From IMG/VR virus record IMGVR_UViG_2548876855_000021: a stretch of DNA of 13,469 bases; one strand, given 5' to 3'. The position numbers and the translations under genes were made by a program. This stretch comes from a virus. Lineage: Duplodnaviria; Heunggongvirae; Uroviricota; Caudoviricetes. Shown here one piece after another: positions 12,669 through 13,469 of the stretch; positions within the stretch are counted from its first letter, which is position 1, and the number at the start of each line of letters is the position of its first letter. The notes under the pieces were generated by a model that was not told the DNA's origin, made no database searches, and was given only the letters and a program-made list of their open reading frames with translations.

Positions 12669-13057
12669 GAATCAAGGACTGCTTTTTTAAGCTCGTTTTT
12701 ATTTTTCAATAAATTAGAAAATGTAGTAGATAAATCATAGGGTGCCACAAAAAAGTACTTCTGAGGGATGGGATAATCACCATTCAGAGTAAAATAGATA
12801 AGTTTTCCAAACTCAACTACAACATCAGAGAACCCTAAACTTTTTTTGTACAGTTTGCATTGATAATTATCCCAAGAATAACCTTCTACGTTAGGATCCG
12901 ATTTATATCCAACAACGTCTCTACCTTTATCTCCAGCTCCTCCCAAACGTTCGCTCCACGGGTAATCATCTGATTTACAGACAATAAGCCAATCATGGAC
13001 AAATACCTCCCATTGTTCATCATCCCATGTCAATATTTCCGAAAGTGGTTGAGACAC
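12641..13057 (-). CDS. Mrr-like (PD-(D/E)xK) restriction-endonuclease-fold domain protein
   Basis: 138-aa ORF with GTG start and a strong AAGGAG Shine-Dalgarno sequence 7 nt upstream. WEVFVHDWLIVCKSDDYPWSERLGGAGDKGRDVVGY followed by DNYQCKLY resembles the Mrr catalytic-domain pattern (GDGGIDG ... QCK) as I remember it. Confidence 0.55.
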   Translation of the reverse strand: MSQPLSEILTWDDEQWEVFVHDWLIVCKSDDYPWSERLGGAGDKGRDVVGYKSDPNVEGYSWDNYQCKLYKKSLGFSDVVVEFGKLIYFTLNGDYPIPQKYFFVAPYDLSTTFSNLLKNKNELKKAVLDSWDSAISKK

Positions 13058-13060
13058 AAA

Positions 13061-13414
13061 TTAACTCCTTTTTAGTCTTTCAAATATCAAATTACTGTAC
13101 CAGTCCATCATAGACTTCCTTCCACTAAAATATTGAGCATGGTTATAAGTCCCCCTAATAGAATTTTTATCTACATGAGCCAACTGGATTTCAATCCAAG
13201 CACTCTCAAAACCTTGCTCATGCAGGATTGTAGAAAGGGTATGACGAAAACCATGTCCAGTGACTTTTCCTCCATACCCAATACGCTTAATGGCTTGATT
13301 TATACTCGCTTCGCTCATTGGCCTATTCGGATCGTTCCGCCCTGGAAAAACATAACGATAGTTCCCTGTCATGATCTTGAGTTCATTGAGTAAATCTACC
13401 GCTTGAGATGATAA
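13061..13414 (-). pseudogene. int: P4-type tyrosine integrase, C-terminal catalytic fragment only (N-terminal about three quarters removed by IS insertion)
   Basis: Track ORF 13061..13372 (103 aa) carries the tyrosine-recombinase catalytic motifs HGFRHT, LAHVD and RGTYNH; a full P4-type integrase is about 400-440 aa. The frame upstream runs directly into the IS inverted repeat at 13415. Confidence 0.75.
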
Positions 13415-13469
13415 GTGAACCGCCCCGGAAATCCTGGAGACTAAACTCCCTGAGAAAGAGGTAAACAGG
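13415..13469 (+). mobile_element. Terminal inverted repeat of an IS3-family insertion sequence (same end as at 1-56); IS body lies outside the window to the right
   Basis: GTGAACCGCCCCGGAAATCCTGGAGACTAAACTCCCTGAGAAAGAGGTAAACAGG, the exact reverse complement of positions 2-56. Confidence 0.55.

What the first reader, a model, noticed from the sequence alone, without database searches (positions are those of the whole stretch)
13040..13469. Cassette is translationally coupled to the 3' end of an integrase that has been decapitated by an IS insertion
The integrase fragment ends AAA AGG AGT TAA (stop at 13061-13063) and the first cassette ORF starts with GTG at 13057, so the Shine-Dalgarno AAGGAG for that ORF lies inside the last integrase codons. 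The cassette was therefore probably co-transcribed with int. The IS end at 13415 has removed the int promoter and N-terminus, so current expression, if any, would depend on read-out from the IS or an internal promoter. Together with the stops in the cassette this suggests a decaying, immobilised satellite.
Basis: partly seen in the sequence, partly recalled or inferred. Interest (0 to 1): 0.5.

Follow-up and report, generated by a model that had tools for sequence, protein, structure and literature searches.

The report
Integrase–Lamassu junction in O157 satellite
This is where the integrase gene of a defunct P4-like phage satellite in E. coli O157:H7 meets a broken Lamassu anti-phage operon; the genes do abut as described, but the insertion sequence split the integrase rather than beheading it, and the operon's main promoter appears to lie inside the integrase gene.

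Summary
On the minus strand the integrase ends AAA AGG AGT TAA (stop 13063-13061). A GTG at 13057 opens a 138-aa ORF, and AAGGAG (13070-13065) sits 7 nt upstream of it.

- The window is the P4-like prophage of E. coli O157:H7, most likely Sp2 of strain Sakai.
- The "cassette" is a short Lamassu/ABC-3C system, lmuA-lmuC-lmuB, in the int-psu defence hotspot. It is dead: lmuA has an A8-to-A7 frameshift, and lmuB has a nonsense codon plus a scrambled stretch.
- The IS (IS629/IS1203, starting at 13416) is a simple 1310-bp insertion with a 3-bp duplication. The 5' 828 bp of int lie beyond it. Only 2 of about 309 genomes carrying this cassette have this insertion; about 290 have an intact int.
- Published Cappable-seq data for EDL933 place the strongest local transcript start inside int, at window 13386, 329 nt upstream of lmuA. 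The int promoter is weaker, and nothing significant starts at the junction. The IS sits at -29/-30 of this internal promoter and removes its -35.
- In related P4-like satellites, 32 of 47 distinct hotspot contents start within about 30 nt of the int stop.

Overall this is ordinary biology with a modest new angle.

The parts
13416..13469 (+). Left terminal 54 nt of IS629/IS1203 (IS3 family). The transposase gene starts just beyond the window and points away from int.
   Evidence: RefSeq annotation of the identical record shows an IS1203-family transposase with programmed frameshift at L001 15471-16684. The insert is 1310 bp with a 3-bp target duplication relative to the intact int of strain TR01. 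An inverted copy of the same end lies at window 2-63.
13413..13415 (.). 3-bp target-site duplication of the IS insertion.
   Evidence: BLAST of the intact int against L001: query 1-555 and 553-1982 overlap by 3 bp on either side of a 1310-bp insert.
13061..13415 (-). 3' fragment of the P4-family tyrosine integrase gene (codons about 276-393 of 393, plus the stop at 13063-13061).
   Evidence: Translation. Pfam Phage_integrase 5.7e-13 and NCBIfam PRK09692 4e-31. Identical to the 3' end of the intact 393-aa int of TR01 and EDL933.
13386..13398 (-). Surviving core of an int-internal sigma-70-type promoter: -10 TAGATT (13398-13393) and transcript start A at 13386. Its -35 (TTGTGC, 18-nt spacer) would lie at 13422-13417, but IS sequence (CGGTTC) now occupies that position.
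   Evidence: Cappable-seq TSS at NZ_CP008957.1 311663(+) has S/N>10 in all 8 conditions and RRS 38-705, against 18-99 for the int promoter TSS 310776 (PMC10469882 supplementary files 5 and 8). The coordinate mapping was checked on the EDL933 sequence. Synonymous sites of the codons under the -35 and -10 are unusually fixed in 31 related ints.
13065..13070 (-). Shine-Dalgarno AAGGAG for lmuA, embedded in the last int codons (AAA AGG AGT).
   Evidence: The same AAAAGGAG precedes the closest intact lmuA (Xenorhabdus bovienii). The surrounding RNA is less structured than shuffles (z +1.7).
12641..13057 (-). lmuA 5' part (138-aa ORF, GTG start): the PD-(D/E)xK (Mrr-like) nuclease effector domain of the Lamassu effector, cut short by a frameshift.
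   Evidence: PADLOC LmuA PDLC03852 9e-41, profile positions 10-140 of 336. Aligns to residues 1-138 of intact 334-337-aa homologues with conserved GxGDxGxD...QxK. Mrr_cat PF04471 is recorded on distant homologues.
12644..12650 (-). A7 homopolymer where lmuA is frameshifted. An A8 run would restore ...SAISKKITKKID....
   Evidence: The two tblastn HSPs against the X. bovienii LmuA meet here in different frames. Also read directly from the sequence. The same state is present in O157 TR01 and O55:H7 RM12579.
12051..12668 (-). lmuA 3' part (the annotated 205-aa ORF; homologous coding from about 12647): ABC-3C C-terminal domain CTD6.
   Evidence: Pfam CTD6 7.7e-30. PADLOC LmuA profile positions 141-333.
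11593..12051 (-). lmuC (ABC-3C middle component MC2), apparently intact.
   Evidence: Pfam MC2 6e-30 and PADLOC LmuC 2.5e-36. 59% identical over 152 aa to the X. bovienii LmuC. RefSeq CDS.
9780..11600 (-). lmuB (SMC/Rad50-like ABC ATPase, about 605 aa when intact), broken into three ORFs. There is a TAA at 10968-10970 (TTA Leu in O55:H7) and a scrambled stretch of about 12 codons with three stops at about 10390-10430. Homopolymer runs at 10432-10438 and about 10595-10602 vary between strains.
   Evidence: PADLOC LmuB PDLC03863 hits the three ORFs at profile positions 3-199, 230-386 and 428-608. tblastn against the intact X. bovienii LmuB aligns 597 aa in one frame with 4 in-frame stops. Strain comparison.
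9720..9753 (-). Terminator-like hairpin (13 pairs) just after lmuB; the likely end of the cassette transcript.
9580..9596 (+). Degenerate cos site of the satellite (GGCGTGGGGGGCTGCGC).
   Evidence: It needs 6 edits, including 2 deletions, to match the 19-nt P4 cos. In contrast, 45 of 63 P4-like loci keep cos within 3 substitutions.

Best explanation
The region is the boundary between the integrase gene and the defence hotspot of a P4-like satellite prophage of E. coli O157:H7, most likely Sp2 of strain Sakai.

The hotspot holds a short, Mrr-type Lamassu (ABC-3C) operon, lmuA-lmuC-lmuB. Its first gene starts 3 nt after the int stop, and its ribosome-binding site lies in the last int codons.

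In the ancestral and usual state (intact int), the operon has no promoter of its own at the junction. It is transcribed from upstream, mainly from a sigma-70-type promoter embedded in the int coding sequence (TTGTGC-N18-TAGATT, transcript start at window 13386, 329 nt before lmuA). Read-through from the weaker int promoter adds to this. lmuA is then translated from its own strong, unstructured Shine-Dalgarno. Ribosomes finishing int could also reinitiate there, but this is not required.

The operon is non-functional throughout the O55:H7/O157:H7 lineage because of the lmuA frameshift and the lmuB disruptions.

In this strain an IS629/IS1203 copy later inserted into int, 29-30 nt upstream of the internal transcript start. 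The insertion splits int in two without deleting anything and replaces the promoter's -35 region, so residual cassette transcription is probably much reduced.

Shown: the anatomy, the homologies, the IS structure and its distribution, and the transcript start in EDL933.
Inferred: that the internal transcript extends through the cassette, and that the IS weakens the promoter.
For: Anatomy and start codon.

P4-like core genes: Psu 4.8e-42, Ogr/Delta, primase-helicase, AlpA, Ash, C4 immunity RNA.

Lamassu identity and decay.

Intact homologues:
- The same order lmuA(334-337 aa)-lmuC-lmuB(604-609 aa) occurs directly after P4-like ints in Serratia and Yersinia, with 18-21-nt gaps.
- It also occurs in a Xenorhabdus prophage that still carries an int 3' remnant of about 85 nt and the same SD.

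IS insertion:
- Simple insertion with TSD; the int 5' half lies beyond the IS.
- 2 genomes have this insertion, 15 have an independent one 310 bp further 5', and about 290 are intact.

Transcription (PMC10469882 supplements; mapping):
- Int promoter TSS at 310776, RRS 18-99.
- Internal TSS at 311663, RRS 38-705, S/N>10 in all 8 conditions.
- 5' ends at 311900 and 311982 are classed as degradation.
- Only one weak TSS (312033, one condition) and then none listed up to 314830.
- No terminator-like site on the coding strand between 13414 and 13058.

Promoter conservation: 4 of the 5 degenerate codons under the -35 and -10 are fixed (>=95%), against 4 of 74 elsewhere.

Generality: 32 of 47 distinct P4-like hotspot contents start -38 to +30 nt from the int stop, compared with 10 of 67 for int loci without psu/delta/sid.
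Against: - No RNA coverage data were examined, so it is not shown that transcripts from 13386 reach lmuA or beyond. The 329-nt leader and the AT-rich cassette could be subject to Rho or H-NS.
- The promoter hexamers are weak by consensus (3/6 and 4/6), and the consensus scan missed them.
- The TSS data are from EDL933 (intact int), not from the strain of the window. The effect of the IS on the promoter is predicted only.
- The synonymous-site signal rests on a few codons in one int clade. The 60-65% int clades lack the TAGATT motif.
- The identification with Sp2 is by position and content, not by locus tag.
Confidence: 0.72

Rival explanations
1. The cassette depends on the int promoter and on termination-reinitiation by ribosomes translating int. 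The IS removed both, so the cassette is now silent unless the IS reads out.
For: The 3-nt gap and the SD inside int. The int promoter TSS 310776 is active in most conditions. Tight int-cassette junctions are common in P4-like satellites.
Against: - The int 5' half and its promoter are still present 1.3 kb away.
- A much stronger TSS lies inside int, downstream of the int start codon, so most transcripts would not be translated in the int frame.
- The junction RNA is unstructured and the SD is strong, so independent initiation is expected.
- The IS transposase gene points away from the fragment.
Confidence: 0.15
2. lmuA has its own promoter immediately upstream, within the last 100 nt or so of int, for example giving the 5' ends at EDL933 311900 or 311982, or from the extended -10-like TGGTACAGT at 13102-13094.
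For: Weak Cappable-seq 5' ends at 311900 (window 13149) and 311982 (window 13067) were assigned to the 138-aa ORF in one table. The WYS codons form a TGnTAnnnT motif (read from the sequence). Rousset et al. cloned co-oriented hotspot systems with only about 95 nt of int 3' end as the 'native promoter'.
Against: - The authors class both 5' ends as below signal-to-noise, i.e. degradation, with RRS 0-2.9.
- No TSS is listed at the position predicted for the TGGTACAGT motif (about 311962).
- A start at 311982 would fall inside the SD.
- The consensus scan finds nothing here.
Confidence: 0.06
3. The internal TSS at 13386 serves something other than the cassette. It could give an N-terminally truncated Int (ATG at 13372, a 103-aa ORF in the int frame), a short regulatory RNA, or spurious intragenic transcription in AT-rich foreign DNA.
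For: An in-frame ATG lies 14 nt downstream of the TSS. The source paper stresses that intragenic TSSs are numerous in EDL933. The motif is also kept in a few elements whose cassette is on the opposite strand.
Against: - It is among the stronger signals locally, in all 8 conditions.
- No SD precedes ATG 13372.
- There is no terminator before lmuA.
- Synonymous-site fixation under both hexamers argues against noise.
- The cassette has no alternative strong TSS.
Confidence: 0.15
4. The 138-aa ORF is a complete stand-alone gene, not a fragment of a longer effector.
For: RefSeq annotates it as an intact hypothetical protein.
Against: All close homologues are single 334-337-aa proteins that cover both ORFs end to end. 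The two ORFs map to contiguous halves of one PADLOC LmuA profile. They meet at a homopolymer run.
Confidence: 0.03

Closest known systems
Defence hotspot between int and psu of P4-like satellites (Rousset et al. 2022, PMC9122126; NAR 2026, PMC13586616)
   Same: Same position: between the integrase and the sid-psu-delta module, next to cos. The cargo is AT-rich (about 30% GC against about 50% in the core). It is a recognised defence family. Lamassu variants are reported in P4 hotspots.
   Different: The cargo here is a pseudogenised defence system, which the 2026 survey found to be rare (<1% of P4 pseudogenes resemble defence genes). Those papers place the boundary 'between' int and psu and treat the intergenic region as the native promoter. 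Here the cassette starts 3 nt after int, the int tail varies with the cassette, and the mapped promoter lies inside int.
Short Lamassu / ABC-3C systems, e.g. Vibrio cholerae DdmABC (PMC12663957)
   Same: Gene order effector-middle component-SMC-like ATPase. LmuB is about 605 aa. LmuA has an N-terminal PD-(D/E)xK nuclease domain plus a C-terminal docking domain (CTD6). LmuC is an MC2 protein.
   Different: The effector domain is Mrr-like rather than Cap4. No solved structure is detectable by sequence. The closest intact relative is only 67% identical. lmuA and lmuB are disrupted, so no defence activity is expected.
Satellite phage P4 itself (NC_001609): int followed by cII on the same strand
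   Same: The first hotspot gene downstream of int is co-oriented with it, and a terminator follows the cargo.
   Different: In P4 the gap is 66 nt, gop and beta are on the other strand, and the int is only distantly related. Here the gap is 3 nt.
IS629/IS1203 insertions in O157:H7 prophages
   Same: A 1310-bp IS3-family element with a 3-bp duplication, present in many copies per O157 genome, hitting prophage genes. A second independent insertion in the same int occurs in the TW14359 lineage. That IS629 is the dominant IS of O157 rests on my own knowledge.
   Different: Nothing unusual, except that this copy lands between the -35 and -10 of the int-internal promoter.

Membership tests
P4-like phage satellite | Core genes: P4-type integrase, alpha primase-helicase, psu, delta, sid, alpA/vis. 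| tested here: met
   Pfam hits: Psu 4.8e-42; Ogr_Delta 1e-16; a Sid-position protein with a weak Psu-family hit; Zn_Ribbon_Prim/Toprim/D5_N/Pox_D5 primase; Phage_AlpA; Ash; DUF5375. In this strain the int is split by the IS.
P4-like phage satellite | CI/C4-type immunity RNA. | tested here: met
   Rfam C4 antisense RNA, 84 bits, at 6293-6380(-); isrK at 6449-6526(-).
P4-like phage satellite | Functional 19-nt cos site for packaging by a P2-like helper. | tested here: not met
   No match within 2-3 substitutions. The best local match, at 9580-9596, needs 6 edits, whereas 45 of 63 related loci keep cos. Sp2 was not packaged in Sakai (PMC2669165).
Lamassu (short type; ABC-3C) | LmuB SMC/Rad50-like ABC ATPase with Walker A, coiled coil and a C-terminal signature/Walker B region. 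| tested here: inconclusive
   Homology is clear: PADLOC LmuB 8e-50, 3e-20 and 5e-37 over three fragments, and 55% identity to an intact 604-aa LmuB. However, the ORF is interrupted by 4 in-frame stops. It is a member by descent but not intact.
Lamassu (short type; ABC-3C) | LmuA: N-terminal effector domain fused to an ABC-3C C-terminal domain. | tested here: inconclusive
   Both halves are present (PADLOC LmuA 9e-41 and 4e-44; Pfam CTD6 7.7e-30) but separated by a 1-nt deletion in a homopolymer.
Lamassu (short type; ABC-3C) | LmuC middle component. | tested here: met
   Pfam MC2 6e-30 and PADLOC LmuC 2.5e-36, with an intact ORF.
Lamassu (short type; ABC-3C) | Anti-phage or anti-plasmid activity. 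| not testable with these tools
   No activity is expected, given the disruptions. The system from O157 FRIK944 that Rousset et al. tested is a different locus (a cytidine deaminase system).
IS3 family, IS629/IS1203 | About 1.3-kb element with terminal inverted repeats starting TGAAC, a two-ORF transposase with programmed -1 frameshift, and a 3-bp target duplication. | tested here: met
   RefSeq annotation. 1310-bp insert and 3-bp overlap. The terminal sequence TGAACCGCCCCGG is read.
Translationally coupled gene pair | Stop of the upstream ORF overlapping or within a few nt of the downstream start, with the SD inside the upstream ORF. | tested here: met
   3-nt gap, with the SD in the last three int codons.
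Translationally coupled gene pair | Downstream translation depends on translation of the upstream ORF, usually because the initiation region is sequestered in structure. | tested here: inconclusive
   The predicted junction RNA is less structured than shuffles (z +1.7), and the main TSS lies downstream of the int start. Both argue against dependence, but only an experiment can decide.

The most novel reading that the evidence does not exclude
In this clade of P4-like satellites the defence hotspot does not begin 'after' the integrase gene but inside it.
- Each cassette brings its own integrase C-terminal tail, stop codon and ribosome-binding site. In some pairs it brings the last 150-200 nt of int.
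- A conserved promoter embedded about 330 nt before the int stop drives whatever cargo sits downstream.

If so, the int 3' end would be both the expression platform and the recombination arm for swapping defence systems. Pieces of it would travel with cassettes to unrelated elements, as in the Xenorhabdus prophage. Cloning hotspot systems with only the intergenic region, or about 95 nt of int, as the 'native promoter' would then under-express them.
Probability: 0.4. Interest if true: 0.55.

Novelty: new member of a known kind. Interest (0 to 1): 0.33.

Why it matters
For this locus, little. It is a dead defence system in a dead satellite, with a recent IS hit found in two New Zealand isolates.

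The wider point is practical. P4-like hotspots are being mined for new anti-phage systems, and these are usually cloned with the short region downstream of int as their "native promoter".

Most co-oriented cassettes may actually be expressed from a promoter inside int and translated from a ribosome-binding site in the int tail. If so, negative results from such clones need re-reading. Defence expression could also be linked to the regulatory state of the integrase region.

The int 3' end travelling with cassettes also gives a concrete molecular scar. It could be used to trace how defence systems move between satellites and prophages.

Tried and rejected
- **Consensus promoter scan.** It found no site on the coding strand of the int fragment. 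This was misleading: the experimentally mapped promoter scores only 7/12 and was missed.
- **Extended -10 candidate.** TGGTACAGT (13102-13094) is formed by the WYS codons and predicts a start near 13087. No Cappable-seq TSS lies there, and the motif is not conserved in relatives. Dropped.
- **Rousset et al. lead.** I checked whether they had tested this cassette from O157 FRIK944. The tested system is a different two-gene cytidine deaminase locus.
- **Database searches.** NCBIfam gave no hits for the cassette proteins. PDB sequence searches with LmuA alone and with a 16-sequence profile gave nothing significant.
- **Closer intact relative.** None was found. In complete E. coli genomes the cassette exists only at >=99% identity in O157:H7/O55:H7. 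In 5.8 billion proteins the best intact LmuA is 67% identical.
- **Intrinsic terminators in the IS.** None is predicted on the antisense strand that would block read-through from the int promoter. Rho-dependent polarity cannot be assessed.
- **tRNA attachment site.** I looked for a tRNA next to int; none was found within L001 1-20000.
- **Literature on P4 int/cII co-transcription.** The search found nothing usable in the held library.
- **First synonymous-codon analysis.** It was misaligned and was redone.
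Full report
**Observation**

All relevant genes are on the minus strand. That strand reads ...GAA AGA CTA AAA AGG AGT TAA TTT GTG TCT CAA CCA....
- The integrase frame ends with TAA at 13063-13061.
- A GTG at 13057-13055 opens a 138-aa ORF (12641-13057).
- AAGGAG occupies 13070-13065, 7 nt before the GTG and inside the last integrase codons.
- RefSeq uses the same start.
- Intact homologues of 334-337 aa begin at the same residue.
- The pattern AAGGAG-N5-9-(A/G/T)TG gives five matches in the window, two of them at this junction, so four distinct sites, against 1.6 matches expected. 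All four sites are annotated gene starts, including psu, whose SD lies inside the end of sid.

**What the window is**

The window is identical to E. coli ERL04-3476 (NZ_CP032808) and nearly identical to some 300 O157:H7 genomes.

It carries the P4-like satellite core:
- primase-helicase, DUF5375, Ash and AlpA;
- C4 immunity RNA and isrK;
- sid, psu and an Ogr/Delta protein.

It lies next to a degraded lambdoid prophage at about 0.31 Mb. I therefore identify it with Sp2, the P4-like prophage of O157 Sakai. This is an inference from position and content. Asadulghani et al. found that Sp2 shows no circularisation, replication or packaging (PMC2669165).

The window itself is the stretch between two inverted IS629/IS1203 copies (arms 2-63 and 13408-13469).

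**The cassette**

The six ORFs between int and the delta/cos region are the remains of a three-gene short Lamassu (ABC-3C) system in the int-psu defence hotspot.
- PADLOC profiles place the 138-aa and 205-aa ORFs on positions 10-140 and 141-333 of one LmuA model.
- The 157-aa ORF hits LmuC (Pfam MC2).
- The 219-, 169- and 188-aa ORFs hit positions 3-199, 230-386 and 428-608 of one LmuB model.

The LmuA N-terminal domain has the GxGDxGxD...QxK signature of Mrr-like PD-(D/E)xK nucleases (Mrr_cat on distant homologues).

The damage is as follows.
- lmuA is frameshifted at an A7 run (12644-12650). An A8 run would restore the reading frame.
- lmuB is in one frame overall but carries a TAA at 10968-10970.
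- lmuB also has a scrambled stretch of about 12 codons with three stops.

O55:H7 RM12579 shares the lmuA frameshift and a mid-lmuB disruption but still has TTA (Leu) at 10968-10970. Decay therefore began before O157:H7 arose and has continued since.

The cassette is found only in this lineage among 5,426 complete E. coli genomes (309 genomes, all >=99% identical). The best intact LmuA in the large protein collection is 67% identical. Defence pseudogenes are reported to be rare in P4 hotspots (PMC13586616), so this is an uncommon state of a common arrangement.

The satellite's cos site is also degenerate.

**The IS and the integrase**

The integrase is not decapitated.
- Comparison with the intact 393-aa int of strain TR01 shows a simple 1310-bp insertion with a 3-bp duplication.
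- The 5' 828 bp of int lie just beyond the IS, outside the window.
- Junction-specific searches show that only two genomes carry this insertion (ERL04-3476 and ERL05-1306).
- Fifteen genomes (TW14359 type) carry an independent IS insertion 310 bp further 5' in the same gene.
- About 290 genomes have an intact int.

The transposase gene points away from the int fragment, so its promoter cannot read into the cassette.

**How the cassette is expressed**

The 3-nt gap leaves no room for a promoter or terminator. A consensus scan found none on the coding strand of the int fragment.

Published Cappable-seq data for EDL933, which has an intact int, settle much of this (PMC10469882, supplementary files 5, 6 and 8).
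- The int promoter starts at 310776, with relative read scores of 18-99.
- A far stronger start lies inside int at 311663: signal-to-noise >10 in all eight conditions, scores 38-705.
- The 5' ends at 311900 and 311982 near the junction are classed as degradation.
- Only one weak start (312033) and then none are listed up to 314830.

I verified on the EDL933 sequence that 311663 corresponds to window 13386 on the minus strand. The -10 TAGATT lies at 13398-13393, and a TTGTGC -35 lies 18 nt further up. The scan missed this promoter because it scores 7/12.

Synonymous sites support the promoter. I compared 31 distinct integrases of the same clade (86-93% identical). Of 79 degenerate, amino-acid-conserved codons in the last 185, only 8 are fixed at >=95%. 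Four of those 8 are among the five codons that overlap the two hexamers (hypergeometric probability about 2e-4, with the hexamer positions set independently by the mapped start).

The most likely mechanism is therefore transcription from an int-embedded promoter 329 nt upstream of lmuA, plus read-through from the int promoter. On the dominant transcript the int 3' end is an untranslated leader, and lmuA is translated from its own SD. The junction RNA is predicted to be less structured than shuffled controls. This also argues that initiation at lmuA does not depend on ribosomes arriving from int.

It is not shown that these transcripts extend through the cassette.

**What the IS did in this strain**

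The IS begins at 13416, which is position -30 relative to the internal start.
- The -10 and the start site remain.
- The -35 is now 1.3 kb away, replaced by CGGTTC from the IS end.
- No hexamer at a 16-18-nt spacing matches better than 2/6 (read).

I predict a strong reduction of transcription. The TW14359-type insertion leaves this promoter intact. Because the cassette was already dead, the consequence is nil.

**Related loci**

I collected 160 loci encoding relatives of this integrase and located the first gene downstream of the int stop.
- Where sid, psu or delta lie downstream (P4-like layout), 32 of 47 distinct hotspot contents begin with a co-oriented gene starting -38 to +30 nt from the int stop, usually with an SD in the int tail.
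- In the same set, ten begin on the opposite strand, and only four are co-oriented with a larger gap.
- Among int loci without those markers, only 10 of 67 are tight.

Integrase homology breaks about 20 nt before the stop, and the last residues differ with each cassette. In some pairs the last 150-200 nt of int track the cassette rather than the rest of int (L109 vs L158, L117 vs L006).

The same Lamassu subtype sits directly after P4-like integrases in Serratia marcescens and Yersinia bercovieri, with gaps of 18-21 nt.

The closest relative lies in a Xenorhabdus bovienii prophage. It still carries an int 3' remnant of about 85 nt and the same AAAAGGAG upstream of lmuA. The alignment score is 34, against 16.6 +/- 2.6 for shuffles and 16 for an unrelated Aeromonas context.

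The two hotspot papers I read describe the hotspot as lying between int and psu. They clone systems with the intergenic region, or about 95 nt of int, as the native promoter. I found no mention of an int-embedded promoter or of a boundary inside int. My literature search was limited to the held library.

**Verdict**

The sequence observation is correct, and the idea of co-transcription from the integrase region is supported.

Three parts of the interpretation need correction:
- "Decapitated" is wrong: the gene is split and nothing is lost.
- "Translationally coupled" is unproven and probably not the main route.
- The IS is a late, rare event in an element that was already decaying.

As a finding it is a new member of known kinds: a P4-like hotspot, a Lamassu system and an IS629 insertion. 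The part worth following up is general rather than local, namely whether P4-like satellites express and exchange their defence cargo through the 3' end of the integrase gene.

Noticed in passing
window 1-63 and 13408-13469: The window is bounded by two inverted IS629/IS1203 ends (62-nt arms, 95% complementary). The left copy splits an SDR oxidoreductase gene. The 13.3-kb segment between them could be inverted by recombination between the copies.
   Followed up: partly
window 9580-9596: The satellite's cos site is degenerate: GGCGTGGGGGGCTGCGC, 6 edits including 2 deletions from the 19-nt P4 cos. By contrast, 45 of 63 related P4-like loci keep cos within 3 substitutions. This is an independent reason why the element cannot be packaged.
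   Followed up: yes
L085 4605-4689 (Xenorhabdus bovienii prophage; also L086, L087): The closest intact Lamassu lies after a terminase gene in a prophage, yet carries a degenerate remnant of about 85 nt of a P4-type integrase 3' end (…HARYFCG*KNF…EWYSDFMFIGYKRRK*) and the same SD upstream of lmuA. This looks like a scar of transfer from a satellite hotspot.
   Followed up: partly
L084 5228-6530 (E. coli O157:H7 TW14359 and 14 other genomes): There is a second, independent IS629/IS1203 insertion in the same integrase gene, 310 bp further 5' and in the same orientation.
   Followed up: partly
window 10432-10438 and about 10595-10602: Homopolymer T runs inside lmuB differ in length between O157 assemblies and O55:H7, changing which fragments are annotated as ORFs. 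Some of this may be sequencing error rather than real variation.
   Followed up: partly
window 2067-3023 (+): A 318-aa ORF in a low-GC stretch (about 28-34%) lies between the primase gene and a LysR regulator. It has no Pfam, NCBIfam or PADLOC hit. This position corresponds to the minor P4 hotspot between the primase and the att site.
   Followed up: partly
window 8527-8544 (+): psu starts with ATGA overlapping the sid stop, and its AAGGAG lies inside sid. This is a second embedded-SD junction in the same element.
   Followed up: no
window 6293-6380 (-) and 6449-6526 (-): Rfam C4 antisense RNA (84 bits) and isrK (72 bits): the P4-type immunity RNA region is present.
   Followed up: no
window 13372 (-), ORF 13061-13372: An in-frame ATG lies 14 nt downstream of the mapped internal transcript start. 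It could in principle give a 103-aa C-terminal integrase fragment, but no SD precedes it.
   Followed up: no
PMC9122126 Table S2A (pFR84, PARIS-1 of E. coli O42): This co-oriented hotspot system was cloned with only about 95 nt of int 3' end and was inactive from its 'native promoter', but active from Ptet. That would fit a promoter lying further upstream inside int, though other explanations are possible.
   Followed up: no
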